Below, in pieces: positions 27,221 to 58,679 of a stretch of 64,000 nt of DNA (within the stretch, counting starts at the first letter, position 1; every line of letters starts with the position of its first letter). Made by a program: the position numbers and the translations under genes. Under the pieces are notes generated by a model. The model was not told the DNA's origin. It did not search any database and was given only the letters and a program-made list of their open reading frames with translations. The stretch is from Rhizophagus irregularis. Its lineage: Eukaryota. The stretch covers positions 1,054,001 to 1,118,000 of the forward strand of contig NC_089434.1 of the NCBI RefSeq assembly GCF_026210795.1, in the 5' to 3' direction.

Positions 27221-27764
27221 ATTTATTTATTTTCATTATTACGATTTTACGAGCTTCATCAATGTAGGTACTAGGTGGTTTCCTTTATCTTATTATTAAT
27301 AATATTTATTTATTTGCAAATACAGTAAATAATTGATATTAATGTTCGTTGGGCCATTTTAACACTTGGAACAAATAATGAAAAAACGTCATAGATGATT
27401 TAATCAAAAATCTCTGATAATTTTTTTATTGACTGTTGAATAAAAATAAACTAAATTATCACGGCAAATGGTTGTTATTGGTGATACAATTGTAAAATCA
27501 TTATTTTCACAGAAACTGAGCGCAGTAGACGGAGTGAATCCGATAAGTTTACTCCATCGGCCAAGTTTTGCGGAAAAAATGTCCGGAGACTCCGGACGAT
27601 CGACCAATAACAGCTTCTATTCCAACGCACGTGACAAGTCTTCGTTACACAGCTAGTTTAATAAATAGCGTATTCGGAGTTACTTCCGATTTTTTTTTCC
27701 TGTCCCTTTTCTTTTTCCAGTTAAACTTTTTCTTTTTTTGAAACTTTATTAAGAAAATTTCATC

Positions 27765-35618: not shown

Positions 35619-37063
35619 ATTGAAAACTTTAGGTTTTTGCTAATAAATTTATGACTTTAGTGGATTATTTTTTTCGCACCAAAATAAAAAAATAGAAAAA
35701 AAATAGAAAAAATATTTTTAATATTCTCAACAAATTTATATTTTCTTTAACAATAAGGTGCCATCATTTTGTTAATAATATCTAAGTTGATTCGATTTGT
35801 TTATGTTACTTTACTAATTTATTCCGATTATAAATTCCAAATAAAGCGATTTATATCGAAATATATAAAGTACTTGTTTGATACATGTGGAGTAACATTG
35901 TGACAAATCCATGATGATCGTTTCCTAAATGTATTAACAGGATAATTGTCAAAAAAGTAGGAATCGATCTCAGATCTTACATTTAATCTAATTTGAAGTT
36001 TTATTTTGGCAAAAAACCTTTCACAAATGCGAATCTTTACTTTTATTAACTTAATTTTTTCCACTTTTCTTTTAGTGTTAATTGCAGGTTTGAAAAATCC
36101 ATCGAGTTTGACGCCACCATGCAATGTCGATCATTTTTTTAATTAAGTCTTACTGTAACAAATACGCGAAAAAAGAAAGAATCACAGATGATCATACTCC
36201 TGTACACAAGATTAAGGTTTGTATAACGATATGAGCGGAGTTGAGTTCCCGAAGATACTCTTTACTCTTCAATCAGACAGCCATTATAAATCTTGTGTCA
36301 CACGAACGAACGAGTTAGATCAGCAGGATGTGCAAAATTCTTAGATTGCTCTTCTTAAAAACGACCAAAAAAAAGAAATTCTAGTTATAGATTAAAAGGA
36401 GAGCTTACAAATTCCTTCTAATCGCTGCAGAATAATATAAATTCTATTCCATTGTTTAGACTTCAACGCGAGATCAATTATGCAATCGAGGCATTCTTCT
36501 TTAATAGCATCTTATTTTCATCACGGGGTAAGCAGCATAAAGTTTCCTTAGATATTCTCCCAGGATATCAAATCCATACGAACCAACAGGGTGAGACTGC
36601 ATTAAAAATGCAGTAACTGAAGTTGCCGTAAACCATTGAATTTACTATTTCTTCCAGTGAATAAAATCATGCACATGATGCGCAGTAAAATATGCGCATG
36701 AAATTTTTAAAAAAATCTATGTGCAAATTCTTTTTGTAAGTATGAAATATAATAAATCCAAAACAAGCGTATAAGGACATATCTGATAAAGTTCGAAGTA
36801 AATTAGATGATGTTAGAACTTCCAAGGTACCAAGGTACTATATGCTTGATAGTATAATTCAATTGTTATAAATTTAAGATTGTTGTGAGTTTTATTTTTT
36901 ATCAGTTTGGATTTTAATCCATATCTTAAATAAAATTATTTGATATAATATTCAATAATTTATGGTTATAATGTCATTTATTTGAATAATTATTTTGAAT
37001 CAATTAATGTGCAATATTAAAGAGCTCACCGGCGGGATATTCACCGGTTATAGTGCAATATTA

Positions 37064-37256
37064 CAGCTGTTTTCATAAGATCTGGGACAAACTAAATTTT
37101 TGAACCCGATCCGCCGATCCGCCGATCCGGTATTTTAGCTGGGCACGTGATCCTGATTTGATAGTTTGATTTGTAAAATAAATAACTGAACCGGATCGGT
37201 GGGTCGGCGGTCGGGTTCAAAAATTTATTTTGTCCCAGGTCTTATGAAAACAGTTG
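37064..37256. mobile_element. Tc1/mariner-type MITE, 193 bp, TA TSD
   Basis: ~55-bp TIRs cagctgttttcataagatctgggacaaactaaatttttgaacccga / tcgggttcaaaaatttattttgtcccaggtcttatgaaaacagttg, flanked by TA. Confidence 0.88.
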
Positions 37257-37872
37257 TAAAATAAATCCATGAAATAATTGCCTAGGCGCAGACATCAAGT
37301 CATCGACATTGATCGTGATCTTGATCAACCTCGATCTCGACATCTAGTTCACGATCTTGTAGAAGGAAAAATTATAAATTATAGAATAGAATAATAAATT
37401 GATCGAGATGATGACGTTAAAATAACTTATTTATTGTACGAATTTTATTCTTGTATAAAAAATTTTTTTTTATTCTTGATATATTTTGCCAGATTTTTTT
37501 TCCTTAATTAAATTCTCTTATGGTTTACTTATCTTCTTAAATACTCTCATTCAAAGTCTTTAGAAGAAAATTTAAAGAAATACCTGCTGTAAAATACCGG
37601 AAAGTAATTTTTTTATATTTTTAAAATCATCGTTCAAATAACTTGAAGGATTCAGGTTTCTGAGCAATACCCATTAAGCATATGTTCCTAAACTTGGACT
37701 TCGAAAGATATTTTTAAAATATACAGTATGCAAAATCAAGTGAATTAAAAAAACTTTTCTGGCTCTTGGAACCATCTTTATATGTGCAAAGAATATATTA
37801 CGCACTACACAGACAATTAGCGCTTCTATTTAATGTGTTGTTATATTAAACGCGGAAAATTGTACTGTATAA

Positions 37873-37905: not shown

Positions 37906-40007
37906 CATTGTTTAATTTTCTGTATTTAAATATTGAAATCAAATCTAAGAGTTGCATTTTACTGGCATTTACAAAAATACTCTAACTGAAAATATTTATA
38001 AACCAAAATTTTTAAATTTCTTTTTCAAATTTTACAATTATTATAATTATTATTTAATGACAACTAACATTATTTATAATATTTTATTAAAAGCATTTCC
38101 AAATAAAAAAAAATCAAATTAATTTATTGTACTATATGTTTAATTAAATATGCTAATTTTTTTAATTAATAAAGAAACGTTTCGCAACGTTTTTTTATTA
38201 AAACAGTTAAAAAACGTTGCGAACCGTTTTTTTAACATGTAATTTAACAATAAAAAATGTTTCGTAAACGTTCATTTTTAATTATTTTAATAAAAGCGTA
38301 TACCCAAATATAAATAATTGAACATAACACTCCCGCTATTCTTTATTTTTCACCAAAATAATATACGACTCCTCCTTGATTTCTCCTTTGACAACAACAA
38401 CTCCTTTGGCAGCAAAGAGAATATTAAGTTAACTGTGGATTATGGCAAAATCTTTTGTGAATAATAGATGGTAACAATAAATTGGTAAATAATAAATTGG
38501 TACAATAAATCGGTAAAATGGTAAACAAAATGGATAATAACCTCAACCCTGCTGACGAGCTTAAACAATTCCTGTTTCTTCCAATACTCCTAATAAAAAA
38601 AATATTAGAAAAACTGAACGCCCCTCTCCGCAAAACACGCAAGATGCATGTATGGCGAAAAATAGATTATGGACTCATCTTAGGAAGCACTTCTCCCAAC
38701 ATTTCCTCATTGAAATATCCATTTCAAGGTCAAAAGTCCACTCCCCGAATAGCTCATTGGGTATCGGAAAAAAAACACTTTTCGAAAAAATAAACAGTGT
38801 ATAGAGAACAATTATGTATTTATATTATATGAAATGTTCAAACTTTACTGCGTAATGATCTACTGTATAAAAAATACATTTATTCATTACCGGACTGATG
38901 GGATATTTATTTATTTCAATTAATTTGATTTAGAGATTTCTGATTTATTCATTAAGAAATACGTTGAAATACGAATTAAAATTGTGATATAATATAAATA
39001 TGAAATCCAAACCGTCCCAGATATTCTGTTTTATGTATTTCATGGTGATCATGATTTTGACCATGATTTTGACATATGATGACTCATTTCTTTATTACAA
39101 TTAAATCCATGATCAAGATGGGCAAAGTAATCATGTGTTATACATAATAGACTTGCGACTGATTGTTTTCGCGTTTTTCGCGTTTTCACGTGTATTAAGG
39201 GAAAATCTGAAATACAATAAGTTATGAGTCATCACGATTTAAATATTTAAGCTTATATAACAAAAAATATATATATATATTATTTCTCTTTTCTAGGTCT
39301 TTAGGCGGACTTGCGTTTTTCTTTCTTTCAAGTTTTGTCTTCTCTTTGTTTAGGTCTACTTTTTTTTTCGACTTTCTCTTATTCTAGGTTTTTTTTCGGA
39401 GTTCTCTTTTTTTTAAAATCTCTGCTTTTTTTAGTTCTTTTTTTTCAGGTTTCGTTTTTGCCTTTCAAGCTTCTCAGAACCCATATTTTTCTTAGGAGCG
39501 GTAAAATTTATACATGGGTGAGGCATCCCTTATTTGTTAACTTAGTCTTCTCTTTTTTTTAGGACTTTGCTTTTTTTCTAAGTCTTCTTTTTTTTATGTC
39601 TTCTCCTTTTTTAGGTCTTCTATTTTTTAGGTTTTTTTTCGGTCTTTTCTTTTTAGGGCTTTTTTTGGGTCTCTTTTTCGGGTTTTTTTCAAGTTTTTCA
39701 GAACTTGCATTTTTCTTAGGAGCAGGTATAGGCATGGGCGAGGCATCCTTTGTGGTAGGGTTAATTTATTTTGTTAAGTTTTTTCTCTTTTTTAGATATT
39801 CTCTCTCTCTTTTTTTGATTTTCTCTTTTTTTACTAGGTCTTCTCTTTTTTTTTGGTCTTCTTTTTTTTTAGGACTCCACTTTCTTTCTAGGTTTTCTCT
39901 TTTTTTTAAGTCTTTTTTTGGAAATGGTATAACAGATAAGTTCTATGCATAGACAGGTAAGTTTATTGGGTATTTATATTGGAGCAGCATGACGCTATGC
40001 ATGGGTG

Positions 40008-40250: not shown

Positions 40251-43200
40251 AGGAAGTCCCTTGTGGCAGGGCCGTAATACTTAATCATTAATTGTCTATG
40301 AGAAAGTATAAGATTTTCAAATAAGATAAAAAAAAATTGATCGACGCATGATCACATTTGGAAAAGTAATTAATTTAATTTTATCAAAGTCACATCAAAT
40401 TCGCTTCTTATAATAAAAATTTTTTAAAAAAATATTTATTTGCCAAATTTTTATTTGATATGTATAAAGGTTTATAATAAAAAACTAGTATTACATCCTT
40501 TAAAAAGTTTAAATCACAAAAAAGTTTCTCTTTAACTTCTTTAGCCTACTTATTGAAGTGATGTAATGGATCTTTGGAAATGTTCATTGCACATTTCTTT
40601 AAAAAAAATTGATAAGTTAGGATAAGTTTTATTGTATATAAAAAATCGTGAATAAAAATTTTTTTTGTACTTTCTAATAATAGAAACGAGAATAATTTTA
40701 TGAGATCAAATATATAATTATGAGATTACTATTTAGTGCTAGAAAATTGTTTATGAAAAACTATGTTAAATAATTTAGGTAATTAAGAAATTTTATAGAT
40801 ATCTGATATATCAATTTATTCAATTTTTTTTTAAAAAATAATTCAATAATATAATTTATTTAATTTTTTGCCAATATTTATTATAAATGACACTGGATTT
40901 TGGTTCTTTTATCTGACTTATGCGAATTATGTTTAATTTTTATAAAAATTCTTTCAAAATTTTATTAAAATCAATAGCGTTCGATTCTATATATAAAAGA
41001 TTATGCATTTGATTGGTTATATCACATGATTGCTGATCTAATTCGAAATTTTAATTTCAGCTTCTCCGTAGTTATAATTCATTATGGTCTAAAGGTATTA
41101 CATAGAATAGTAATGATGAAGTTGATTAATAGGAATCATATTCCATTTTCATATTAGGTCCTTTCCAAAGAACGTCGTTTAACTTCCTTTGTTAGATAAT
41201 GCTAAAGAATGGTCTAAATTCACTTATCTCATTTCACAAAAAAAGATATTTTTTTTAAGCTCCTTTTTTTTAATACATACATTTTTGTTTAGCCTAGACC
41301 TAAGAAACCAAGACGCTGGGAACCTTCAGAAACATTGGATGTTTTAAATCACCTTTCTAGTAAATTTTAACGTGTGGTATGATATCCTGCGCTGAAGCAA
41401 TAAAGGCTACTAATATTAAATGAGGAAGTAGTTCAGTTTATGGTAAAGTTTATTATTAGAATTATGGATAATTGTGACATCTTATGGTAGAATAAAAAAG
41501 CGTGATTTAATAAAAGAAATGCGTCATAAAACCAAAGAAAGAAAGAGAAAGAAACTACGAAAAGACCGTGAGAAAAGGTATGGCATCAGAATTTATACAT
41601 TTAAGATGGTTGATACTATTATAAATTTATATTAATCTCATTTTCTGGTAATATAACTGAGACATCCACAAATCAGATGGTATTAAAGCCAAGAGGGACT
41701 ATTCGAGAAATTCGTGATTTGTGTATCTCAACTTCAGGTAAGTTGAAAAAGTTTCTATGATGATAATCTCCGATTGATTGATTTTTTTTTTGTAATATGA
41801 TTTATTGATTAATTTACGCAATGCTTTTATAGAATAATGGCTCTTCTGATTATTGATTTGTACATAATTTTTATCTAGAGAATAATAGGTTTCTTTTTTT
41901 CTTTCTTTCACATAATAAGGTGAGCTTAACCTTTATATTATGTATATTCTTTTTTACTTAAGCAAACATATCACATGATGATTTGTGTAAATTATTTATT
42001 ATACAAGTTTATAAGCGAAACTAAATTGAGCACGATTGAAGGATTTTTATCATCTTCTTTTTTAAGTTGAGGGATTTGGTGTTTAAAGTTGTAGTTTATT
42101 AAGAGTTGTTGGACAAATAAAAATTTTAAATAAGAGTATTTTAACAATATTGGTTTTTCGTTACGATACTCCTGTATTGTTAAAAGATATTCCAAGTTGA
42201 TCGACGATTATGTCCATCTGCCCAATCAAAATAAAGAGGGTTGCCTCCTGATCAAAATTAATAAAGTAGCGTGATCCGTTATTTTTTTTAAAAAAGGTTG
42301 TATTTAATTAATAAGTCTAAGCTCATCATGTGATAATAATACTAAAAATTATATCATAATTACCGAATAAACCCGTTTTCTTAATGTAACGCTTAGCCGT
42401 TTTATCAATTATAAAATAAAAAAAAAATATTCGTTTATTTATTTTTTCGTGATTTTTTTTTGTTAAAGAGACTTTTTATGCAACATTACATTTTTTAAAA
42501 ATATTTTTGCTGATTTCACATTAAATTTTTTGTATAATTACAAAATTTCTACAATTGTTATGTTCATTTAGTTCATTAAATTATGAATAATTTTTTTCTT
42601 CTAATCTTCTACTACTTTTTACCGTTTCTACTTTTTTTATATAAATATAAAAACTTTATTAACCAAATTTCTTAGATTTAAGAAAAAAGTAAACCTCTTA
42701 AATTATTTATATTTAAAAGATACCTTAAATAAATTAAAGACCAAAACGGTGGAATGTTTCAGAGTTGATTGAAAATTTTCATTAACCTTAATAATAATTT
42801 CTTCGAAGAATGATATGAAAACTCTTACGATACTTGTAATAAAGTGATAGAAACCACAAATATTTTCATGTTAATCTATTATATTATGAAAAAGCAAGCG
42901 AAAGAAAATGAAGAAGCTATAAAGAGAAGAAATTTGTGAACTATTCTAATCACGACTGCGCTGTGGAATTACTATTACAATATTTTTAGACGCGTATAAA
43001 ATAGCTTCGAATAATGAGCTTATGCAACATTTCATATTTAAAATAGCATGATTTCTTATCTCTCACTATGATTTAACAATTGGATAGCACAAGCAAACTA
43101 ACTTTTTATGTAGTAAAATCTACATATTTCGAGATGTTTAAGTTTAGTTCCATTTTTAAGCTTATTCAAGAAATTTTACAGATGCATATAAAGGAATGGA

Positions 43201-43716
43201 TACTAGTATATATAAATAAATACAGTGCTTATTTAAGTTTGTATATATATATATATATATATATATTATGTGAAAAATTCGTTATAATATAGTTAGAACT
43301 CTTATTATATATTGTCTTACGTACGCTTTAGCTGAAAGTTTTCAACAATTTGCCAACTTTATCAAGATATAATAATTTATGCTTGCATTAAAAAAATATA
43401 CAATAATACAAAGGAATTTGACTTTTATGCGGGATGCATAAATTGCATCCCATGCATAGTAATTCTGATATACATGGTATTTAAATTATTTAATAAATAC
43501 ATCATAATTGTCTCATGCGCAGCTTTTTTTGATACGCGTCTAAATTTAGACTTTTTTATTTCACATGATCACGTGTTTAAATTATATTATACTTTTTTTC
43601 CCAACGATTATCATCTTTCCTCTTCCCCTCTCTTCCTCTCTTCCTATCTCCCCTCTTCTTCTCTAGTCTCTCCTCTCAACCTCTTTCTCCCACTTATAAA
43701 TTTTATTACAACTAAA

Positions 43717-46292
43717 ATGAGTGACTCCGAATTTATGTCAAGCGATGATGAAATTTTCGATGAGGCTTTTGATAATGATTTTATTGAAAATATTCCTAAC
43801 GACAGTGACTCTGATGGTGAAGACAATGGCGGTTCCTCCAATGAAACTCTGAAATTGGAAGTTGGGATGGCTTTTCTCACCTGGAAGATTGCATTTAACC
43901 ACATCAAGCAATGGGCTCACCAACAGGGCTTTGGCATACGCAAAGGAAGATCAGAAAAAATAGAATCTAAATTAAGAAAACAAACAATTGTATGTTTTTG
44001 TGAAGGAGTTTATAATAATCAATCAAAAAAAACTAACAAACCATCAAAAACACATCGCACAAACTGCAAATGGCATGTTAATCTTTCTCGGCCAACAAAA
44101 AATAACCAAAACTCTATGATTTTCATTACTACAATTGTTGATGAACATTCTGGACACAGTTTGGATCCTTGTGCACGTCGATTTGAAGCAGATAAAGCTT
44201 TTACAAAACCAATGTTAGATGATATTGAATGGATGTATGTGCATGGTCATTTAAAGCCATTAGCAATTAAACGAATGTTGAAGGCTAAATATAAACGTAA
44301 AGTTTATAACAAGGATCTTTATAAAATAATTTACAAGTACCATCGCAATATTGATCAATTAGGCAATGATGTTTCACAACTTTTTGAGTATCTTGAAAAA
44401 TGTAAGGAAGATGATCCACGTTGGATAATTTATAAAGATTGGGACCGTGAAACCAACACACTGACGAAACTTTTTTGGATGAATCCTGATCAATTAGAAA
44501 CTTGGTATCGCTATAATGATGTAATTCTTAATGATAATACTTCAAAAACAAATCGTTATGAAATGTCTCTTTCTTTTTTTGTAGCAATAGACAATAGTAT
44601 GAAATCTCGAATTGTAGCACAAGCATTGATGGATCGTGAAACAAAGGATGCGTACGCTTGGGTTTTGCAATGTACAATTGATGCAACAGGAATTATTCCA
44701 AAAGTATTCATAACAGATGCTGATCCTGGTATGGATCTAGCTATTCGGTTAAAATATTCATCCACATTTCCTATTCATTGTATCTGGCATATTGGACAGA
44801 ATTTACCTTTACGTCTTAAGTCAAAGCTTGGTGGTTTATTTGACCAATTTAAAAAAGATTTTTATGAATGTAGGAATAGTTTGAAACAAGAAATATTTGA
44901 ACATCGTTGGGCAAATTTACTTATTAACTATCCAAATGCTGCTAATTATCTTGAAAAGTTTCTTTATCCTTCTAAATGTTCTTGGGCTCGAGCATTTAGT
45001 GTCATGATTTTTACAATAGATATTCAAACAACATCACGTTGTGAATCTGTTAATGCCACATTTAAAAATCTCTTACAAAATTCAAATAATACACTTGTAG
45101 ATATATTTTTTACTATTGAAGAGCGGTTAGAAGAAGAGCAAGATAATACTGATTATTTAAATTGGCAGAACTCTCTTACAACAATTCAATCCAGTACAAT
45201 AGCTTCTAATGCTTTTACTGATGTAATTAACAAACTCAAGGATTTTACAACTCCTTCAATTCAAAAAATTCATAATAATGAAATGGAATTGGCATTTAGT
45301 TATGACACTAGACCTTTGGATCAATCTTATATTAATAATGAAGATTCTCATGTATGATGTTAATTATTAAGTTCATTTATTTTTCAGATTGATATGTAAC
45401 AAATTTTAACTCTTTTTTAGGATTTATTATTTGCTAATGATTTTATTGAAAAACAAGAAGTACGGCAACTTTCCTTTCAGCAACTTTTACTATCATGTGA
45501 CCAGAAAGAAATTAAAAGTCTTTGGGGCGTTAGCTATTTAACCTCTTCCGATACACACCATTTAGTCATTTTATTAGATAATGGGATGTATAAATGTTCG
45601 TGTATGTCTCTGATTAATCGTGGTACTGTTTGTAGGCATTATTTCTGTGTAATGTTACGAACATCTCAAGCTCAATTCCATATTGGATTCCTTAATCCGC
45701 GGTGGTTTGTTGAAACTTCTCCAGATCTTAGGAGTCGTCCATTCTGTCCTGCTTCGAAGTTTAAAATGGATTTGGTTATTCCATATTTAGAATCTAATAA
45801 TCCTCCTAATTTTCTTCATTCAATAAATGAAAATATTTTGAATAGAAATAATCCGTATGTCACTCTTAGTAAGCAAAAGTTATATTATATGAATATTAAA
45901 GGTTTGTCTAAACAAGCAAGTTGTGTTGCTTGCAAAACTTGTGATGAATCTTTTGTTACATTACTTGAGGATTATATTACCAAGAAAATCATGAAGCATT
46001 GGAGTGGGCGCAACTTGGATCATTAAACAATCGATCTCAAGATTTGATTAATTTAGAACCTGATCAGGAAAATGCTGAACAACTTGGAAATCCTATAATT
46101 CGGCGGCCTAAGGGAAGACCTCCGGGAGTTGCAAGGTACAAAAATCCTTTAGAGGAATCATCTAAACCTAATGAAGGTACCTGTAAAAGAAAAAATCAAC
46201 AAAATAAATGTAGTTTGTGTAATAATGTTGGACATAATCGTACAACTTGTCCTTCAAATCCAAATGGAAAGAAAAGGAAAACATCATTGTAA
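43717..46292 (+). CDS. MULE (FAR1-like) transposase; exons 43717-45351 and 45421-46292; 1-nt deletion at ~45985 puts the C-terminal AT-hook/zinc knuckle out of frame
   Basis: Acidic N-terminus (MSDSEF), FAR1/WRKY-like domain (CFCEG..CKW..EHSGH), DDE core (LNDNT, ITDAD, CIWH, SRCES), SWIM (YKCSC..VCRH), AT-hook-like RPKGRP and CSLCNNVGHNRTTC. Sequence aagaaaatcatg here versus aagaaaaatcatg in the other arm. Confidence 0.9.
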
Positions 46293-46309
46293 TTTAATGG
46301 CTCAAATCA

Positions 46310-48628
46310 CTACTGTAATTCAAGCCGCTGCTGCGCCCACTCCAATGCTTCATGATTTTTCTTGGTAATATAATCCTCAAGTAATGTAACAAAAGATTCA
46401 TCACAAGTTTTGCAAGCAACACAACTTGCTTGTTTAGACAAACCTTTAATATTCATATAATATAACTTTTGCTTACTAAGAGTGACATACGGATTATTTC
46501 TATTCAAAATATTTTCATTTATTGAATGAAGAAAATTAGGAGGATTATTAGATTCTAAATATGGAATAACCAAATCCATTTTAAACTTCGAAGCAGGACA
46601 GAATGGACGACTCCTAAGATCTGGAGAAGTTTCAACAAACCACCGCGGATTAAGGAATCCAATATGGAATTGAGCTTGAGATGTTCATAACATTACACAG
46701 AAATAATGCCTACAAACAGTACCACGATTAATCAGAGACATACACGAACATTTATACATCCCATTATCTAATAAAATGACTAAATGGTGTGTATCGGAAG
46801 AGGTTAAATAGCTAACGCCCCAAAGACTTTTAATTTCTTTCTGGTCACATGATAGTAAAAGTTGCTGAAAGGAAAGTTGCCGTACTTCTTGTTTTTCAAT
46901 AAAATCATTAGCAAATAATAAATCCTAAAAAAGAGTTAAAATTTGTTACATATCAATCTGAAAAATAAATGAACTTAATAATTAACATCATACATGAGAA
47001 TCTTCATTATTAATATAAGATTGATCCAAAGGTCTAGCGTCATAACTAAATGCCAATTCCATTTCATTATTATGAATTTTTTGAATTGAAGGAGTTGTAA
47101 AATCCTTGAGTTTGTTAATTACATCAGTAAAAGCATTAGAAGCTATTGTACTGGATTGAATTGTTGTAAGAGAGTTCTGCCAATTTAAATAATCAGTATT
47201 ATCTTGCTCTTCTTCTAACCGCTCTTCAATAGTAAAAAATATATCTACAAGTGTATTATTTGAATTTTGTAAGAGATTTTTAAATGTGGCATTAACAGAT
47301 TCACAACGTGATGTTGTTTGAATATCTATTGTAAAAATCATGACACTAAATGCTCGAGCCCAAGAACATTTAGAAGGATAAAGAAACTTTTCAAGATAAT
47401 TAGCAGCATTTGGATAGTTAATAAGTAAATTTGCCCAACGATGTTCAAATATTTCTTGTTTCAAACTATTCCTACATTCATAAAAATCTTTTTTAAATTG
47501 GTCAAATAAACCACCAAGCTTTGACTTAAGACGTAAAGGTAAATTCTGTCCAATATGCCAGATACAATGAATAGGAAATGTGGATGAATATTTTAACCAA
47601 ATAGCTAGATCCATACCAGGATCAGCATCTGTTATGAATACTTTTGGAATAATTCCTGTTGCATCAATTGTACATTGCAAAACCCAAGCGTACGCATCCT
47701 TTATTTCACGATCCATCAATGCTTGTGCTACAATTCGAGATTTCATACTATTGTCTATTGCTACAAAAAAAGAAAGAGACATTTCATAACGATTTGTTTT
47801 TGAAGTATTATCATTAAGAATTACATCATTATAGCGATACCAAGTTTCTAATTGATCAGGATTCATCCAAAAAAGTTTCGTCAGTGTGTTGGTTTCACGG
47901 TCCCAATCTTTATAAATTATCCAACGTGGATCATCTTCCTTACATTTTTCAAGATACTCAAAAAGTTGTGAAACATCATTGCCTAATTGATCAATATTGC
48001 GATGGTACTTGTAAATTATTTTATAAAGATCCTTGTTATAAACTTTACGTTTATATTTAGCCTTCAACATTCGTTTAATTGCTAATGGCTTTAAATGACC
48101 ATGCACATACATCCATTCAATATCATCTAACATTGGTTTTGTAAAAGCTTTATCTGCTTCAAATCGACGTGCACAAGGATCCAAACTGTGTCCAGAATGT
48201 TCATCAACAATTGTAGTAATGAAAATCATAGAGTTTTGGTTATTTTTTGTTGGCCGAGAAAGATTAACATGCCATTTGCAGTTTGTGCGATGTGTTTTTG
48301 ATGGTTTGTTAGTTTTTTTTGATTGATTATTATAAACTCCTTCACAAAAACATACAATTGTTTGTTTTCTTAATTTAGATTCTATTTTTTCTGATCTTCC
48401 TTTGCGTATGCCAAAGCCCTGTTGGTGAGCCCATTGCTTGATGTGGTTAAATGCAATCTTCCAGGTGAGAAAAGCCATCCCAACTTCCAATTTCAGAGTT
48501 TCATTGGAGGAACCGCCATTATCTTCACCATCAGAGTCACTGTCGTTAGGAATATTTTCAATAAAATCATTATCAAAAGCCTCATCGAAAATTTCATCAT
48601 CGCTTGACATAAATTCGGAGTCACTCAT
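46310..48628 (-). pseudogene. Mirror MULE transposase copy; intron 46925-46993; nonsense codon at 46685-46687; lacks AT-hook/zinc knuckle
   Basis: Same protein as the + arm, but CGA->TGA just after the SWIM motif (VML*TS). The downstream frame ends ..EWAQQRLELQ*. Confidence 0.88.
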
Positions 48629-49129
48629 TTTAGTTGTAATAAAATTTATAAGTGGGAGAAAGAGGTTGAGAGGAGAGACTAGAGAAGAAGAGGGGAGATA
48701 GGAAGAGAGGAAGAGAGGGGAAGAGGAAAGATGATAATCGTTGGGAAAAAAAGTATAATATAATTTAAACACGTGATCATGTGAAATAAAAAAGTCTAAA
48801 TTTAGACGCGTATCAAAAAAAGCTGCGCATGAGACAATTATGATGTATTTATTAAATAATTTAAATACCATGTATATCAGAATTACTATGCATGGGATGC
48901 AATTTATGCATCCCGCATAAAAGTCAAATTCCTATATAAAAATATTTAAACTTCTTTTAAATATTTTAGATAATTTTTTACTACTAGCTAAAAAAGTTTA
49001 AGATATAAATTAATACTTATTTAAAGACTTAATGTTAGTAAATTAGTACTTTAAAAATACTACTCATTAATGTACTATTATTTTTCCAATAAATTGACTT
49101 ATTAAAATCATCAACTATAAAGTAAAAAT

Positions 49130-49450
49130 CAATTAATAAAATGATTAATGAATATTATACCATAATAAACACTTACTATTATCAGGAATTTGAAAGTCAT
49201 CATATGATTTACTATAAAATGCTACAAAGAAATAAAATCATTAGGTATTAAAAGTAAATAACTTTCAAATAAAAATTGTTGATTCATACCTTCTTGTTCT
49301 TCTATTATTATAATCGAGAATTTGAAAAATATATATTATACAATATTAGTATATTTTAAATTTTATAAATAATGGTAAGTATATAATAATTAATACCTTC
49401 TGTTGTATTTTTTGGTTCGGAGAAAGTTTCAAATTGATGAATTTTTCGGC
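49130..49450 (-). pseudogene. Orphan 3' exons of a TKL kinase paralog
   Basis: Minus strand encodes KIHQFETFSEPKNTTEG, the aagaacaagaag micro-exon and a DFQIPDN exon, matching the kinase array tail. Confidence 0.75.
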
Positions 49451-50559
49451 TTTTCACGGACGGTAGGATAATATATTGAAAAAAAAATTGGTATACGTAA
49501 TAAAAAATAATGTTCATTGTCAATTATTGTATTAGTCTTAAGTCTCTTCATATATAATATTTTTTTTATTTAGTAGGCATCATTGAATTTTAATGATAAA
49601 AAATTTACGATAAATTTTTTTATGACGATACACAATAAATAATCTAAAAGATTTTTTTTCAAAAAAAAAATGACATTGTAAATTATGTATCGTTCATATA
49701 ATATTTAAAATTATAAACCATATTATAGTTATCAACGAAAAAAATTGGTTTGGGCAATTTTTTTTTTTTCAAAAAAATTCATATTTTCACCTAAAAATCA
49801 TCATTAGAAAAAATATTAAAATATTTATAAAAAAAATCAAACAATTATATTCCTAACATAAGGTTTAATAAATTTAAAATTTGATCCGATTTGAAATCAG
49901 ATTATACAGCATAAAAACAATTTATATAATAAGAACATGATGAATTGGAAATTCTTGACGGTAAAGATCTTTTAAAATAATATTTTAGAATTACTAATTT
50001 ACTAAATTTTATATAAATTATAATTTTATTTCTAAGAATTTTGTTTCGTTCCTATATCCTGTGAAATCTAGTCTGGATCTTAAATTCTAGTGATGTTTAA
50101 TTGTAATTTCACATATTAGATTAAATTTCTATATCATTTAATAACAGGGCGTAACTCTGAATGAAAATGTGTTGTAATTGTTTCTTTTCTTTTTCTCTTT
50201 CTTTTTGTTTTTATCCCTATTTTTGAATTATTTAATCTCTAAATTTATAGTAAGATATCTTCAATTCTTTACATAGTTTGTAATTCATTATAACTTGAAA
50301 TATAAATTATTAATTTTTTTGTAAAAAATTATTACAATAACATGATAAAATTATCTATAAAAAACAAATAAAATAAAATGAAATTTTAATAGTTATATAC
50401 TTCCTATAATTATTTTCTGTTTCGCATATCTTTATTAATAAGTAAATTAATTATAGATCAATAGAAATATAAAAATAATAATCTCAGAGAAAATTATCTT
50501 TATAACTAAATTAACTATCTAAATCTAAAATCTATATTTATTTCTAGAAAATCTGTAAT

Positions 50560-52570
50560 TACAATCTAACTAAATTTACTTTCGTTATTTGCTTGTGATC
50601 ATTTTGTCAAATGTTACCTGTTTTTCTAATTCTAATAATTTCTTTAATTTGCTTTTTCTATATATTTTTGAGTTTTTGTTCGTTTTATCATCATTTTCTT
50701 TGTAACTACGACTATGTCCAATCGCTCTTTTATCTCTACCACTAATATTATTTAATTTTTCTCAACGATAATTTCAAATAATAGTTCTCAAATTATTAAA
50801 GCATAACTCCCATAATTCTTTTATTGTTTCATCACCTGATCACGACCTAAAATAATTGAATGTAATAACTCTAGTATTTTCTTATCTTGATGTTTCTGTT
50901 TTGAATTTTCTTCATAATCTACAAGCGTTGAAAAAACAACTTTCCTTATCGATCTTTTATTATCTTCACAAATCCATATGTGATTCCAGTCTCAATCTCT
51001 CTATTACATCTTATATCGCTCCGTCTATCATATTGTTTCCCGTTCATATAATATTATTAATTTTATAACCCCATCAAAACTATCCTCTTTGTTACATTGA
51101 AATTTGTTATGAACATTTCTATTACTAATAAAATTAAATGTCTCCGCAATCTATTTAATGAGGACTAATAATACCAAAAATATCATTTAATAGCGCACGA
51201 TGTAATATTTCATTTTCATATTTAGCAATTGTAACTTTTTTAGTCCAGTTACGATAATTTCCTGAAATTAAAAAACTCTTCCAATATAACGTGAATTCTT
51301 GAACTATTATATTATTACTTTTGAGTTTTAACGTATAAATAAGTATAATCCATTAATAAGTAAACGTTGATTTTTTAATATCGTCTTCTAAATCCTTTTT
51401 ATATTTCTCTACGTAGGCAAAATTATGGTTTTCTACCTCGATAATATCAATTTTATACTTATCTAATCATTCTTCAATAAAAGATAACTCGACCATGTAT
51501 TTATTATCAAGACGTCTTCGTATATTTCTCTCATTTATAAAGTTAATAATAATTCTCATTATCTGCTCATCTGTTATAATCGTTACATTACTATTAGAAG
51601 GAATTATTAATAATATTAATATACAGTTCACCCTCGCTATAGTGAAGCTCATGGGCTGAAGGTTAAGATTCACTATAGTAAGGGATTCACTATAGCGAAG
51701 GTGAACTGTATTAAGAATTATTATTTATATAGAAAATCCGTACCTGAGCTTTTCTTTACTATAGCAAATTATTCACTATATAAAAATTCACTATAGCGAG
51801 GGTGAACTGTATATGATAGTGTGTAAAATGGTGTCATCCATGAAAGCAGTCGTGTTGAATGTCAAATTTTCATCTATTTTTTTTCATCACTTGATCGTAC
51901 ATCGTCTTTATATCTTACTTCAATTCTATAACAAACTTCATTTCTTACTAATTCTAGTCTCGTTAGTGAAACATCGTAAAAAATACGCCATAATATTGGT
52001 GACCAAATCTCACCTTGGTCTAAACCGTCCCTTACATCGTAACTTCTTTGTTTACAATAACTCTATTAAATCTGTTATTAATGATATCCTACTATATTGA
52101 TGAGTTTTGTAGGAAGTTTTAAGCGTCCTAAGTTTTTTTCAAGCATAATACTACTAACAGAATCATAGACCTTTGAAATGTCCATTAGTAAAATTCAAGC
52201 TTCCTTTTTATATTTGTTGGCGTCTTTTATAATTCCTTGAATAATTTTAATTGGTTCAAACACACAGTTGTTACTCAATGCCACGTAATTATTAGGATTA
52301 AGAATTTCACTGATAATATTGCGTCAAGTCTTTTCTTTAAAATTTTCATCATTAGTTTTCTTGCTGTTTCAATAAGAGTTATCGGACGCGTTAAATTTAG
52401 ATCCTTATTCCAACCTTCTTTCTTCTCAATTGGATACACCAGTCTTCTTCATTCTCTAAACACTCATTAATTATTAATATTAAAAGCAATTTTGTAGTAT
52501 CTTTAGCTTTTTCCAAAATACATACGTTATACCACTACTTCCCGCTGCGGGCGCTGCCTTATTATTTTTT
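50560..52570 (-). mobile_element. Decayed non-LTR retrotransposon (LINE) RT and C-terminal zinc-knuckle region
   Basis: Minus-strand translation gives RT motifs in order: DLNLTRPITLIETARK (~52400), ILLMDISKVYDS (~52180), GLDQGEIWSPILWRIF (~52010), AFMDDT (~51840), then WNHIWIC (~50980). Many stops and frameshifts; boundaries approximate. Confidence 0.85.
51624..51809. mobile_element. pogo/Tc1-type MITE, TA TSD, nested in the LINE, with an extra internal right TIR ending at 51708
   Basis: TIR cagttcaccctcgctatagtgaa / ttcactatagcgagggtgaactg, TA flanks. Second copy ttcactatagcgaaggtgaactg-ta at ~51686-51710. Confidence 0.88.
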
Positions 52571-53524
52571 GATAAACTAATTATTTCTGTTGTTATAAAC
52601 TAATAAATTATAAAAAAAATATCGTTACTTGTGTTACGAAAGGACGAAAGGTGCATAATCAGAAGGATCATCCCAAAAAGAAATTGAGATGACGTAAGTG
52701 GATTGATGTAAAGAAAATACATGGGTTAATACGAGATATAGTTCACTCTGGACAATTGCCGTTATTAAATTTTTACTAATATGGTAGGAAATTTTATAAT
52801 CAAAATTATTTCTTTTAAACAACAAACAAGATGATAAATTTAATATGAAAATCTTAGTAAGGAAACATTAGAACAACGAATTATTTCTGCATAGCAGACA
52901 AAATTTTGATTTTGCAAATTAACCGAATATATGTGTAAAACTTAGTAATAACCAATAAATAATACAAGTATTAAGTAATTTATTCTTAATTTTTATTTAA
53001 AAATTATCCCTGCAAAAATTTTATGTAAAAACTCCGTGAATATAATACATTTACGGAAAAAATAACAAAAAATCTAAGCAACTTGGATAATTTCCATGTT
53101 TTGAGGCTATAAATTCCGTGCATTATTTACATTTGGTGTTCTAAAGGATTTAAGAAAATTGGGTTGGCGTATATTAGATATTGGTCTAAGATCTTCGATA
53201 TAATATCATGACATGATAAGATGTATTTAGAAAATAAAATAAAAATTCTATCATGATAAAATTAATATAATTATTGTAAGCATAATAAATGAGAGTTCTT
53301 ATATACTAATAATTAAATAAACAATTAAATTTCATCCGGACATACTAACATGGAATAAAAAAAACACGGAATAAATGTTCGATATAAAATATACAGAAGA
53401 TACGAAAAAATTGTTATGGTGTTACCGAATTTTTTCGTAACAAATTCATTATAAAGTATATAAAATTATAAATTCATTTATACAAAATAATATACATTTG
53501 CAATTGCTTCAAAGTATTTTATAA

Positions 53525-54190
53525 ACTATAAAAATCATCTTTAATAATTGGTCGCATTATATCACCTTGAAATACACTATTATTTTCTTTAGCATTCCTT
53601 TTTCACATTTAGATTATGTGCAATCATATAATAGACAATGAATGAAAGCATATTTGCGGACTATAAAAAAGTAATGGTTATTATAATTCAAGTTGTTAAA
53701 GAACATTACATTTATGTTATTAGGCCATTCCAAACTAATAATTAGTTTAACGTTTTTTCTGGCTGAAAATTTTGGGGGGGAGGGAATAATTTAAACATAT
53801 ATAATATTTAAACATATTAAAATTTTCGGAAGTTTCGGTAAAATCGGAAATATTTGGTACACCCAATTTCAGAAAAGAGAGGGGGGCTTTAAACATATGT
53901 GAACATATGTGTTTAAATTATTTTAAAATTTTCAAAAATAGGGGGAAAGGAGGACGTTAAACTAAAAATTGATTCGGAATGGCCTAAACTTCGATGATTT
54001 ATCGCAAAAAAATAAAATTTTCTAAGTTCCACTAAAATTCCTTCAGGTAAATTGACTCGAATTTCGCTATCAGTCATAGATCACCAGCTTCGATATAATT
54101 AACACCACGAAATGTATTTTTGATAATCATCGATGTCAACATATTATGCGGTAAAGGCTCATCAAATGATCTTCTTATCGTCTCTCTTTT
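53525..54190 (-). pseudogene. Cytochrome P450 pseudogene fragment (paralog of the two downstream genes)
   Basis: 53525-53660 matches exon 2 start (56060-56195) and 54030-54157 matches exon 1 end (56305-56440). This is joined directly to 5' flank sequence (cttatcgtctctcttttc), i.e. a large internal deletion with frameshifts. Confidence 0.8.
53723..53984. mobile_element. 262-bp MITE with GGCC termini in the P450 pseudogene intron
   Basis: ggccattccaaactaataattagtttaacg versus reverse complement of cgttaaactaaaaattgattcggaatggcc. Flanks tta / taa. Confidence 0.75.
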
Positions 54191-54220
54191 CTTTATTTTA
54201 TTTTTTTTTTTATGTTGAAC

Positions 54221-54380
54221 GGGTGTCGTCTAAAATCTTGAAACTCAAAATCCTAAAATCCAACAGGTCAAAATCTTTACAGAACGACTTTCAGGCAGCA
54301 TTAAAGCTTAATGTGGGCCAATTTTTCTGGATTTTGGATTTCGGGATTCGGAGTCGGGATTTTGAGTTTCGGGATTTCGC
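54221..54380. mobile_element. 160-bp insertion with 8-bp TSD (tgttgaac), built of aaatcc/ggattt inverted motifs; related fragment at ~61435-61520
   Basis: Direct repeat at 54213-54220 and 54381-54388. Absent from the paralogous 5' flanks at ~57375 and ~60435. Confidence 0.7.
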
Positions 54381-55622
54381 TGTTGAACAGCGTCTTCAAT
54401 TCCTTTAACTTTATTTTCTCAGGATATTTATATTTTTCTTTTTTTTTCTTGTATTACTAGTAATTTGAAATTATTTTACACACACTATATTTGTCGTCGG
54501 AATTAATTACGGTGTATGGAGTTTATACCCTTATGCCGTAATTCAAATACCGTAAAATAAAAAGATTGCGCGATATAAAAAAAAGAAATCCATTTGAATA
54601 TTTATCAAAAAATCAACATAAGCATTATAGATTTACAATTTATGGCATTATTTAATATGCATTTATGAATAATATATAGCATATTCAACATGCCGAATTT
54701 AATAATTCGCTATTTTCGACGATACGTCGATACGTACAGTCGTACAATATTAGTTGATCACCGACATAATTTGATTCAAGATGTGTGATTGTCAATTATA
54801 CAATGAGATGTATGACGCTCTCTAAATTAAATATTACCACTTCAATTATTAACTGCATGTGATAAATTTGTTAAATGGGATTTTTTCTTAAATTGATAAA
54901 CAGTATTACTTTAGGTCTTTTATTTTAAAACCCGATATAGTCAATATTGGATATTAAAAGATTTGATATTAAATTCGCAATATAATCTTGATAATACATA
55001 AAATATTATCCTGATGGGCCATATTTTTTATTACAAGGATCTACCGTATAATGCGGCCTGAAGAATTTTGTAAATTTCAGAGCTTTGACACATTATATGT
55101 TTGAAACTTACATAATTATATCGCCAGAAAATGAAAGGGGTATTATAACTACTAAGAGAGCTATGGTTTTGAACAATATTCCGCAGTTTCTTGACAGGTT
55201 CAGCTATACCATATCCAGTTTGCCAATTAATGTGTTGATTATATTCATTTCGTTACGTACAGTAATACATGCCAATTTTGCAAAACTTTTGCCAAAATAA
55301 ATGATTTAATTACTTACCATATGAAAAAATCTAGAAAAAACTCCAATAAATGATCATTTTTCTAGTTTTTATTTCGAAGAAACTCAGGCACGTGATCATT
55401 TTTCCGAAAAATTTTTTATAGGGTTATAATGTTGTCTAAATTATTCATGAACAATCACAAACCCCAATCCCGTAAAATATCTCCGCAATCATAATGCATC
55501 CTAACTTTATATATTTAGTCCTATTCAGTTATAAAAAAAATTGTGTAACATAATACATTACGTACCGCTGCGGTAAATATAAAATATTAAATTTATTTAG
55601 AGATGATATAGTAATAAGAAAA

Positions 55623-57338
55623 TCAATTTCTTGGTTTAATTTCAACTAATAATTCGACACAAGAAACTAAAATACCGCCATCACACTTAACTTTAATAGG
55701 AGAATTCATATCTACTAAATTAATTTCATATTTTCTAAACAATAAAGCAATCAAACAAACTAATTCAATCGTTGCTAACTTTCTTCCTGGACATAATCTT
55801 AATCCTCCACCAAACATGATAAAAGAATTTTTCTTTGGTTCAAAATTTTCATCCATCCATCTATCAGGGTTAAATTTATTAGGTTTCTCCCAATAATCAT
55901 TATTATTATGAATAGCTTGAATGTTAGCTAAAAACAATGTATCAGCCGGCCATTGATATCCTGCTATTTCACTAGGTTTATCAATATATCTTGTATTAAA
56001 GTGCACAATTGGGAGAATGCGAGCTGTTTCTTTTACAATTGCTTCACAGTATTTTAAATTATAAAAATCATCTTTATTAATTGTTCGCATTTTATCATCT
56101 TGGAATATACTATCAATTTCTTCTAACATTTTCTTTTTCACATTTGGATGATGTGCAATATAATAAATAATGAATGAAAGCATATTTGCAGACTATATTT
56201 GAAATAAAAAAAAGGAATTGTTAATATAATTCAAGTTAAAGCATATTGCATTTATGTTAAAAATAAAACATAAAATTCTCTAAAAACTTACTTTGTAAGA
56301 TCCATTGGAAATTCCATCGAATAAATTGACACGAATTTCACTGTCAGTCATAGATCTATTGGCTTCACCAGTTTCGATATAATTACCATCACGAAATGTA
56401 TTTTTGATAATCATCGATGTCAACATATCATGAGGTAAGGGTTTGTCCAATGGTGTATCTTCAATTTGTTGTCTACGTCTCTTAATAATTTCATCCAGTT
56501 TTTGATTGGTAAAACCTATGTTTTGAAGTATATCATTTGCTATATTTTTATAATACGGAACATAACGTCGTATAAAAGGAGTAGTTACGGAAAAGAATAA
56601 ATATCCCGTATGAAATTTACGAATTGCTTGAAATAATTTTTCAGAATCTTCGACTCTCTCTGATTGATGACCAGATTTTTCATCACTAAGAGTATTAAAA
56701 TAATTTGCCATTGAATAAGTCCTTTCCCCAGTTAATAATTTGATTATCATATCATTTTTATAATGATTAAACCAAATAAAAAAATCTAATTTATTTTTTT
56801 TTTCTTTGATAATTTCTTCTCTAGAAAATAACTTATCCCAATAACCTTCTAATTCATTGAAAAGTTCGTTTGTCCAATCAATAACTTCATTAGTAAATTT
56901 CGGTGACAAAATAGCTTGATTAAAAAAATGACGATTAAATGTCCAAGACTTAAAATTATTATTGTACGTTATTCCTTTTCCTTCAATTCCCAATTCTTTT
57001 AATCCCTTGTAATTTGCAGATCTCATTCCATGTGTACTCTTTGATAAAAAATCCTCAAGATATTCTGCTCGACATAATACTATGCATCGCAATAAATTAT
57101 TAGTTTCATATATGCCACCATATTTCTCGTAACAATATTTATAAAACATTGTGGTATCTCCATTATACCAAATAATATAAGGAAGAGTGCCAATTAGTGG
57201 GAACGGGAAAGGGCCAGGTAAAGGATTAACACGAGTAAAATATTTGTAATAATAATATATCACATATATTATTAATACTGTACTTAAAAACGATAAAATA
57301 AAATTATTAATTTCAAAATTCTCTATTTTAAAGATCAT
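55623..57338 (-). CDS. Cytochrome P450; exons 57338-56292 and 56192-55623
   Basis: N-terminal TM anchor, LPGPFPFP hinge, ETAR (ExxR), PDRW, heme motif FGGGLRLCPG. A 99-bp GT-AG phase-0 intron joins GSYK|SANML. Confidence 0.93.
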
Positions 57339-57642
57339 CTTATCGTTTCTCTTTTCTTTCTTTCTTTCTTTTTTGTTGCTAAACAGCTACTTAAATTCCT
57401 TTAACTTAGTTTTTTCAGGATTATACATGTATATATATATTTTTGTTGTATTTTGTAACATCTCATTTTAAATTTGATTCAATATGAGTGATCGTCATTT
57501 CACCGTATTTTGTAGTATATAAGCACCCCCTTTTTTTACACTTAATGCCAGTCAAGATCCTCATAATTCTGGGCGAAATCGCTATAATTCTGGCCAGGTG
57601 GTAGGGGTTCCTTGGTATTAACGATTAACGCTATCACGTGCA

Positions 57643-57841
57643 CCCTGTAAAAAATCTGATCCGTGTTTTATCTTTCCATGTTTTTTCCGTGAATGTATCA
57701 TTTTCATGGAATTTATAGCCTTAAATCATGGAAATTTTCATCTCGCTAACACGGATATCCGTGAATGTATCATTTTCACGGAATTTTTACGGAAGACACG
57801 GAGAAATAATGGAAATATTCGGATAAAAATTTTTTATAGGG
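57643..57841. mobile_element. ~200-bp MITE with CCCT termini
   Basis: ccctgtaaaaaatctgatccg versus cggataaaaattttttataggg; internal duplicated ccgtgaatgtatcattttca. Absent from paralogous intergenic segments. Confidence 0.6.
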
Positions 57842-58090
57842 GCAAGTGCATGACTTCTAAACTCGGGGCCAGTTCATCCGTTAATCCCCCATGTGGTAAA
57901 TTTGTTAAATGGGATTTTATTCCTTAATCGATTGTCAGACTGGTTGCAGTATATGCAGTATGATTTCCCAAGTACCATTTTCCTGAAATCAATTTTTCGA
58001 TTGACTATTTCCCGAACTGGATCATTTCCTAAAGCTGTGGCTTTGAACGATATTTTGCAGCTTCTTGACAGGTTCAGCTGTATCATATCC

Positions 58091-58386
58091 TAGAGGTTGA
58101 AACCGACCAAAAAAACCTTAACCGATTAATAATCGATTAACCAAGGGCCCTAATCGATTAATAATCGACAAATATTAACATTAAAAAATTTTTTTTTTTT
58201 TGGCCGCAGATTGCACCAAATTGTTTTTTTATAATACAAAAGTTAAAGAAAAGTCTTATTTTATTATTATTATTAAAAAATTAATACAAGTTCGGAGAAC
58301 ACGTGATCAAAAATTCACAGCTCTGGCTAGAATTATGGGTTGGATAATTTTAATCGATTAACCGTCTTAATCGATTCCAAACTCTG
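58091..58386. mobile_element. hAT-type MITE, 296 bp, 8-bp TSD tcatatcc
   Basis: Imperfect TIR tagaggttgaaaccga versus cagagtttggaatcga (reverse complement of right end). TSD at 58083-58090 and 58387-58394; repeated aatcgatt motifs. Empty paralogous sites at ~55210 and ~60830. Confidence 0.9.
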
Positions 58387-58679
58387 TCATATCCAGTTTG
58401 TCAATTAATGTGGTTGATTATATTCGTTTCGTTACGTACAGTACATAATGACAATTTTGCAAAACTTTTACAAAAATATAAATAAGTCTGACCTAAACGA
58501 TTTAATTACATATAAACGTCGTTTAAATTAATCGCAAAACCTAATTCCGTAAAGTATTCCGCAATCATAATGCATCCTAACTCAGTCCTATTCAGTTATA
58601 AAAAAATCGTGTAACATAATACAATACGTGCCGCTGCGGTACATAATTTATTTAGAGATGACTGACATAGTACATTTAT

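What the first reader, a model, noticed from the sequence alone, without database searches (positions are those of the whole stretch)
43413..48932. Giant MULE palindrome with Mu killer-like architecture: candidate endogenous hairpin-RNA transposon silencer
Seen: two ~2.6-kb arms, each with the element's left end, promoter region and transposase exons, point toward each other around a 319-bp spacer. No separate right end is present. Both ORFs are damaged in different ways (frameshift in +, nonsense in -), and there is no intact TSD. Any read-through or convergent transcription would give kilobases of dsRNA covering the transposase. Established: maize Mu killer is an inverted duplication of the MuDR 5' end whose hairpin transcript yields siRNAs that silence MuDR in trans, and AM fungi have RNAi machinery and TE-derived small RNAs. 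Inference: a fungal 'killer' locus for this MULE family. The alternative is a foldback element that is mobile as a unit, since both ends are transposase-binding ends and the + arm keeps its DDE core and SWIM.
Basis: partly seen in the sequence, partly recalled or inferred. Interest (0 to 1): 0.92.

Follow-up and report, generated by a model that had tools for sequence, protein, structure and literature searches.

The report
Mirror-image transposon in mycorrhizal fungus
A jumping gene in a plant-root fungus sits as a real 5.5-kb back-to-front duplication with both copies broken; if transcribed it would fold into RNA hairpins that could silence its family, but none was seen in the limited RNA data checked.

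Summary
The palindrome is real. The arms (43413-46012 and 46332-48932) are 99.8% identical, with 5 substitutions and 1 indel. An independent short-read contig bridges the central joint, and read depth falls from about 3 to 2 copies in the spacer. The host is Rhizophagus irregularis. The 'spacer' is the 3' end of the transposase gene, so the + copy is a nearly whole MULE with a frameshift; the - copy has a nonsense codon. Both arms share a rare allele, so they descend from one copy. The break lies in the loop of a short palindrome that normal family copies carry behind the stop codon, joined at 4 bases of microhomology. Depth suggests normal copies lack long TIRs. There is no target-site duplication. 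Best reading: a local tail-to-tail hop followed by a central deletion, now a decaying and probably methylated relic. The native 3' end is lost, so read-through would give a hairpin of about 0.45-0.65 kb, not kilobases. The architecture is Mu killer-like, but killer function is unshown: no RNA crossed the joint, and a published small-RNA table lists no locus on the family gene models checked.

The parts
43413..46012 (+). Left arm: element left end, promoter region, transposase exon 1, intron, most of exon 2
   Evidence: blastn and pairwise alignment
46332..48932 (-). Right arm: inverted copy of the same 2.6 kb
   Evidence: its private alleles are in X1 contigs
46013..46331 (+). Unduplicated centre: 3' end of the transposase CDS (zinc knuckle, stop 46290-46292) plus 39 nt of 3' UTR
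   Evidence: depth about 2 copies against about 3 for the arms in X6
43413..43470 (+). Left end with subterminal hairpin, conserved in the 75%-identical relative L001 (about 114-172); mirror copy at 48875-48932
   Evidence: z -5.1; 0 of 200 shuffles fold as well
43717..45351 (+). Transposase exon 1: FAR1 DNA-binding domain, MULE DDE domain
   Evidence: Pfam PF03101, PF10551 (E 2.6e-16), PF21056
45352..45420 (+). 69-nt GT-AG intron
   Evidence: spliced out in contigs of X18 and X20
45421..46292 (+). Transposase exon 2, broken by a 1-base loss in the A run at 45985
   Evidence: the 4A form is in X1 record 7 with 0 gaps
46994..48628 (-). Right-arm exon 1, open, with private changes T309I and R344W
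46685..46687 (-). Nonsense codon (CGA to TGA at a CpG) in right-arm exon 2
46299..46335 (+). Left half and loop of a short family palindrome; breakpoint with 4-base microhomology (46332-46335) to the arm
   Evidence: loose ends in X6, X16, X10 continue as the reverse complement; homologous hairpin in L001
46770..46969 (+). First four AATAAA hexamers a read-through transcript would meet; mirror set at 45575-45381 on the - strand
   Evidence: AAUAAA at 56.7% of poly(A) sites (PMC10234402 passages); their use here is inferred

Best explanation
This is a real 5.5-kb tail-to-tail duplication of one Rhizophagus MULE copy, with both transposase copies broken, which likely arose when the element hopped next to itself in inverted orientation and the unstable centre was then deleted from the loop of a short family palindrome through 4 bases of microhomology. 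Shown: the structure, the descent of both arms from one copy, the breakpoint, and the loss of the native 3' end. Inferred: the hop-then-delete route, which gives clean outer ends without a matching target-site duplication because the inner duplications were deleted. Also inferred: the locus is now a methylated, decaying relic that cannot encode a full-length transposase. If either promoter fires, the transcript would run into the opposite arm as far as the first AAUAAA signals and fold into a stem of about 0.45-0.65 kb over exon 2, a Dicer substrate. I put meaningful siRNA output at about 30% and heritable silencing of other copies at about 15-20%.
For: The joint 46012/46331 is bridged by an X1 contig with 55 letters on the short side; X16 also shows it, but with 28 letters, under the tool's 31 rule (2 of 4 runs). 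X1 contigs carry the right-arm alleles and the left-arm 4A. X6 depth is 3.1 copies for the arms and 1.9 for the centre, against 7.2 and 7.2 in X12. K506 is in 3 of 21 proteins that cover the site, two being models with the arms' own alleles. Contigs of 3 of 7 runs laid continue from 46335 as the mirror of 46316-46325, so normal copies hold a short palindrome centred on the break. The same site is deleted in other ways in other copies (X18, X6 and X10 loose ends at 46303; P0067 and P0088). No TSD. 3 of 5 substitutions lie at CpG (P 4e-4 over sites; P 0.005 for 3 of 4 C>T/G>A changes), which fits 5mC decay. A spliced family transcript runs 266 nt beyond 46303 (X18), into sequence this locus lacks.
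Against: The empty site and the normal right end were not seen, so the route is not proven. The flank comparison was inconclusive. The outer junctions are covered with only 30 (X1) and 27 (X10) letters on the element side, under the 31 rule. P0089 has K506 without either arm's defects; it could be a collapsed consensus or a separate copy. A break exactly at a hairpin loop fits fold-back replication equally well. A 6-of-8 flank match could be a decayed TSD. Methylation was not measured, and MULE-MuDR elements expressed in spores had low median mCG (12.5%) in PMC8647823 (passage).
Confidence: 0.45

Rival explanations
1. Same product, other origin: a break at the short family palindrome was hairpin-capped or fold-back primed and replicated into a large palindrome. 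Transposase then cut at the copied left end, or an Ac-killer-type sister-chromatid transposition with aborted re-replication produced the two facing ends.
For: The breakpoint is in the palindrome loop. Short inverted repeats seed large palindromic duplications (PMC7999016 passages). Ac killers consist of two 5' ends in inverted orientation, with arms of 1.8-3.9 kb (bioRxiv 2020.01.07.897926 Discussion).
Against: It needs a second precise event at the terminus, and depth suggests there is no long TIR to re-enter by homology. The Ac composite insertions have perfect 8-bp TSDs; this locus has none.
Confidence: 0.25
2. Whatever its origin, the locus is an active killer: its own promoters make hairpin or convergent RNA, Dicer cuts it, and the siRNAs silence the family in trans.
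For: Killer-type architecture. The native 3' end is lost. The centre folds with 462 arm-arm pairs at -865 kcal/mol against about -250 for 5 shuffles. DCL, HEN1 and 10 AGO proteins were detected in spores, and young TEs give 24-nt sRNA (PMC8647823 section 8 part 1). One Ac killer is probably driven by its own promoter. An intact 835-aa gene and a spliced transcript were seen only with alleles that differ from the window's (P0035, X18), while the other model under the same strain label, P0047, lacks 19 aa.
Against: No RNA contig crossed the joint in X18 or X20. 0 of 4 family or sister-family gene ids overlap any of 2,131 sRNA loci at 10 RPM or more, including the id of P0044, the model that reads into an inverted arm (PMC6399891 file 4). 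CpG decay in both arms suggests silent promoters. The intact-versus-broken contrast rests on about two genotypes.
Confidence: 0.2
3. It is a fold-back element that moves, or moved, as one unit on two left ends, using transposase in trans.
For: Both outer ends are precise and identical element ends. The best flank match is 6 of 8. P0044 reads into an inverted arm but carries alleles of another copy.
Against: No perfect TSD although the arms differ by only 0.2%. Depth leaves room for one spacer-less arm only in X6 and none in X12. Only 1 of 113 proteins fetched shows antisense read-through, and its splice sites fit this locus's own layout. Consecutive accession pairs elsewhere look like alternative models of single loci.
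Confidence: 0.07
4. Assembly or chimeric-read artefact.
For: No listed contig spans the whole locus. X6 showed no joint. X1 may be the data behind the assembly (tool warning).
Against: The symmetry stops exactly at the element ends, with unrelated flanks. The differences are CpG-biased. The joint appears in runs of two studies. The depth step is seen in a third.
Confidence: 0.03

Closest known systems
Mu killer (maize); passages of PMC3440606 and bioRxiv 2020.01.09.900282; Slotkin 2005 itself not read
   Same: MULE superfamily. Two copies of the same element end face inward, with transposase sequence in an inverted repeat and the other end missing.
   Different: Muk arms hold about 1.3 kb of mudrA. 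Here the arms are 2.6 kb, the + copy holds the whole CDS, and the centre is its 3' end. Muk comes from a long-TIR element, whereas this family appears to lack long TIRs. Muk has shown transcripts, 21-22-nt siRNAs and heritable trans-silencing; none is shown here. No intact flanking gene that could read in was identified.
Ac killers p1-ww-id1 and p1-ww-id4 (maize); passages and Discussion of bioRxiv 2020.01.07.897926
   Same: Two 5' ends in inverted orientation, kilobase arms of unequal extent (1.8-3.9 kb in id4), and possible transcription from the element's own promoter.
   Different: hAT superfamily, flanked by perfect 8-bp TSDs and linked to 0.3-3.2 Mb inverted duplications, with silencing shown. 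Here there is no TSD and the breakpoint is at a family hairpin.
Palindromic duplications seeded by short inverted repeats (PMC7999016 passages)
   Same: Centre at a pre-existing short palindrome; a spacer of about 300 bp that stabilises the repeat, like yeast fragile site 2 (two 6-kb Ty elements, 280-bp spacer).
   Different: Here the duplication ends exactly at a transposon terminus, not at a chromosome break.
Fungal MULE/FAR1-type transposons of Rhizophagus (P0035 and relatives, L001)
   Same: Intact family protein of 835 aa with FAR1, MULE and zinc-knuckle parts; same intron, left end and 3' hairpin.
   Different: Normal copies run on past the hairpin into a different 3' end; this locus does not.

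Membership tests
MULE superfamily | MULE-type DDE transposase | tested here: met
   PF10551 E 2.6e-16, with PF03101 and PF21056; motifs LNDNT, FITDAD, HCIWH, RCESVN in both arms (their catalytic role is recalled)
MULE superfamily (intact element) | 8-11-bp target-site duplication (recalled) | tested here: not met
   best 6 of 8; so filed as a rearranged derivative, not an intact element
MULE superfamily (intact element) | Long terminal inverted repeats in the normal element | tested here: inconclusive
   Terminus depth equals one end per element in X6 (5.8 against 3.1 + 3.05) and X12 (9.7 against about 9.5 at the 3' hairpin). The right end itself was not seen. X1 shows a much higher, unexplained terminus depth (22.7).
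Killer loci (Mu killer, Ac killers) | Inverted duplication of part of an autonomous element with both ends from the same terminus | tested here: met
Killer loci (Mu killer, Ac killers) | Transcription through the inverted repeat into dsRNA | tested here: inconclusive
   no contig across the joint in X18 or X20, but X18 carries other copies' alleles, X20 has only 3 faint contigs, and contigs cannot show absence
Killer loci (Mu killer, Ac killers) | 21-24-nt siRNAs from the arms | tested here: inconclusive
   0 of 4 gene ids among 2,131 loci; indirect, because the window was not placed on that assembly and the member lists were cut (15 of 19)
Killer loci (Mu killer, Ac killers) | Heritable silencing of intact elements in trans | not testable with these tools
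   needs expression and methylation data by isolate or nucleus type
Foldback elements (mobile long-inverted-repeat form; definition recalled) | Several dispersed palindromic copies, each with a TSD | tested here: not met
   no TSD; one spacer-less arm by depth in X6 and none in X12; 1 of 113 proteins with antisense read-through; no whole genome was held for a direct search

The most novel reading that the evidence does not exclude
This MULE family carries a fragile hairpin behind its stop codon that predisposes it to make facing, 3'-end-less duplicates. This locus is one, and works as a self-driven killer whose siRNAs shut down the family across the many nuclei of the shared fungal cytoplasm: a fungal counterpart of Mu killer.
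Probability: 0.15. Interest if true: 0.8.

Novelty: new variant of a known kind. Interest (0 to 1): 0.42.

Why it matters
How an active transposon first gets silenced is shown in only a few plant cases (Mu killer, Ac killers). Searches for a fungal or mycorrhizal case listed none, within a library that lacks most subscription papers. This locus makes the question testable with existing data, because six arm-private differences and a unique joint let small and long RNA reads be assigned to it, and isolates differ in copy number (about 3 against 7) and in having an intact, expressed gene. If it silences in trans, one nucleus type could regulate a transposon family in others. If it does not, it is an ordinary rearrangement scar that still shows a breakage hotspot inside the family.

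Tried and rejected
No whole genome was held, so there was no direct copy census or empty-site search. A scan of metagenome contigs gave 1 locus from 89 candidate stretches (L001), which ends at the hairpin. The terminus pattern had 0 hits in genome and viral contigs; the hairpin pattern had 0 in viral contigs. The protein gave none in viral contigs and one weak bacterial match, L002 (51 residues, E 2e-4), set aside as irrelevant. Rfam: 0 matches in 41000-51000. Consecutive accessions CAB4402783/4 and CAB4402626/7 first looked like more doublets. I rejected that because the members share private changes and differ only in the middle, like alternative models of one locus. P0044 as a second palindrome is unresolved; the simplest reading is this same layout with a predicted intron from 46136 to about 46531. 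46304-46331 as foreign filler was rejected, since it is normal family sequence (X12 record 9; L001). A flanking promoter was looked for: the right flank holds only a 3' remnant of a kinase gene (49070-49451) with no upstream body detected. Flank contiguity against kinase paralogues was uninformative, as only 1 of 6 paralogue pairs is conserved there. X20 has only 3 contigs at depth under 3 and cannot be assigned to this locus. Supplements of PMC8647823 hold none of 3 protein accessions searched; file 1 was not searched. could not list the central joint, because it is collinear in that stretch and 273 pieces were not shown. Earlier scan notes by place and by sequence were empty. No structure or complex prediction was run, since nothing turned on it.
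Full report
Observation. The window holds one long inverted repeat. The arms are 43413-46012 and 46332-48932 (2600/2601 bp, 99.77% identical) around a 319-bp centre; the next pair is 66 nt at 74%. The arms differ at five bases and one A-run. The symmetry stops at the element ends and the flanks are unrelated. No target-site duplication is perfect for 6-12 bp and offsets of -2 to +2; the best is 6 of 8. The closest named homologue is 99% identical and labelled Rhizophagus irregularis DAOM 181602=DAOM 197198. No whole genome was held.

Gene anatomy. Exon 1 (43717-45351) carries FAR1 and MULE domains. A 69-nt GT-AG intron is spliced out in contigs of two RNA-type runs (X18; X20). Exon 2 runs through the centre to a stop at 46290-46292 and ends in a zinc knuckle, so the centre is coding sequence. 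Against the intact 835-aa family protein P0035, the + copy shifts frame at residue 735 and ends at 746 aa. The - copy stops after residue 624 and has T309I and R344W. Both keep the DDE-region motifs and neither yields the C-terminal knuckle. SWIM is a motif-level and database-name label only; Pfam did not call it.

Reality of the structure. 17 of 24 listed runs hold half or more of the sampled words; I laid 7 runs. The strand-switch joint 46012/46331 is in contigs of 2 of 4 runs: X1 with 55 letters on the short side, and X16, another study, with 28, under the tool's 31-letter rule. X1 may be the assembly's own data. X1 contigs carry three right-arm alleles and the left-arm 4A form. X6 shows no joint, but its depth is 3.1 copies over the arms and 1.9 over the centre, whereas X12 gives 7.2 and 7.2 (from per-contig means, so rough). 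The outer junctions are overlapped by 30 letters (X1) and 27 letters (X10), short of the rule. Three of five substitutions lie at CpG (P 4e-4 over sites; 3 of 4 C>T/G>A changes, P 0.005), which fits methyl-cytosine decay rather than read error. An artefact is very unlikely.

Origin. Both arms carry K506, found in 3 of 21 proteins that cover the site: the two arm-type models and P0089, which may be a collapsed consensus or another copy. The arms therefore come from one copy. The break is not random. Contigs of X6, X16 and X10 continue from 46335 as the mirror of the preceding bases, and an X6 contig gives the far side (the tables were cut to 24 of 64 and 18 of 48 rows). Normal copies thus hold a palindrome with arms of about 30 bp (inferred from these short ends), and the window joins its loop to 46012 through four shared bases. 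The site is deleted in other ways in other copies (loose ends at 46303 in X18, X6 and X10; P0067 and P0088). The relative L001 (75% protein identity) has a perfect hairpin there (z -6.6) and a homologous left end. Terminus depth equals one end per element in X6 and X12, so normal copies probably lack long TIRs; X1 does not fit this (22.7 copies) and is unexplained. Two precise outer ends, no TSD and no TIR to re-enter are explained most simply by a local inverted hop followed by deletion of the centre (inference, 0.45). Fold-back replication from the hairpin, or Ac-killer-type alternative transposition, is the main rival (0.25). Short inverted repeats do seed such duplications (PMC7999016 passages), but the Ac cases keep perfect TSDs. 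The empty site was not seen and the flank tests were uninformative.

Function. A spliced family transcript starts near 43622 and runs 266 nt past 46303 (X18), close to the 250-nt mean 3' UTR of the species (PMC10234402 passages). This locus has lost that 3' end, so a transcript from either arm would enter the opposite arm. The first AATAAA lies at 46770, with three more by 46964, and AAUAAA marks 56.7% of poly(A) sites. The likely stem is therefore about 0.45-0.65 kb over exon 2. Two AATAAA inside the sense unit are evidently read through, so longer products are possible. The centre folds as expected (462 arm-arm pairs). The RNAi machinery is present in spores (PMC8647823 section 8 part 1 of 2).

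Results against an active killer. No RNA contig crossed the joint, but X18 carries the alleles of other copies (13 other letters, P0035 type) and X20 has 3 faint contigs. In the table of 2,131 small-RNA loci at 10 RPM or more from strain DAOM 197198 (PMC6399891 passages, file 4 part 1 of 76, and searches), none of four family or sister-family gene ids appears. One locus has a MuDR label, on a gene whose relation to this family is unknown. This test is indirect, because I could not place the window on that assembly. A weak point in favour is that an intact, expressed gene was seen only with alleles other than the window's, while the other model under the same strain label lacks 19 aa; that is about two genotypes.

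Comparison. It works like Mu killer in shape only: the same end twice, facing, with transposase in the stem (PMC3440606 and bioRxiv 2020.01.09.900282 passages). The four shared features of killers listed in bioRxiv 2020.01.07.897926 (Discussion) are inverted duplication, transcription to dsRNA and siRNA, heritable trans-silencing, and long-range siRNA movement. Only the first is met here, so I do not file it as a killer. It differs in holding a whole CDS, in its apparently non-TIR family and in its hairpin breakpoint. Passages of PMC9757828, PMC11075540, PMC5751038 and PMC11624286 and the search listings showed no description of this locus or of a fungal killer. The library lacks most subscription papers, and supplements of bioRxiv preprints and of PMC10234402 were not seen; the latter may hold small-RNA loci that bear on this. 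Earlier notes of this scan list six similar transposon palindromes in other genomes, none with silencing shown (unchecked), which lowers the surprise.

Verdict. A real, young, locus-specific inverted duplication of a MULE with a killer-like shape and an informative breakpoint; silencing function unshown and slightly disfavoured. New variant of a known kind; interest 0.42.

Noticed in passing
window 44029 to 46266 joint: An internally deleted, non-autonomous derivative of the family (2,236 bp skipped) is in runs X6 (about 3 copies) and X16; protein model P0034 on 3 contigs has the same join.
   Followed up: partly
P0044: A database gene model reads from the transposase into the antisense of 45815-45675 but carries alleles of another copy: either this layout in a mosaic assembly or a second palindromic locus.
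   Followed up: partly
window 46299-46303 loose ends in X1 and X6; L001 3013-3040: The 3' hairpin cassette also occurs with diverged neighbouring sequence, so other repeat families seem to share it; its role is unknown.
   Followed up: partly
window 10193-29231; remnants near 26668-26870 and 49070-49451: Four tandem kinase paralogues (Pkinase for the one scanned) and two 3' remnants; one remnant points at the right end of the palindrome from about 140 bp away.
   Followed up: partly
window 21445-23101 (- strand): Two ORFs of 302 and 155 aa with no Pfam match, between kinase copies; possibly a transposon fragment.
   Followed up: partly
window 9280-9440, 37058-37262, 12005-15729, 53086-57739: Short inverted-repeat pairs (44-52-bp arms), MITE- or TIR-like; no clear TSD by eye.
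   Followed up: partly
window 55623-60445 (- strand): Two tandem genes about 3.05 kb apart that look like cytochrome P450 by a heme motif (recalled); the one exon scanned had no Pfam match.
   Followed up: no
window 5775-7514 (+); 39300-39950 (-): An F-box-like gene (weak PF12937) and a lysine-rich low-complexity stretch.
   Followed up: no
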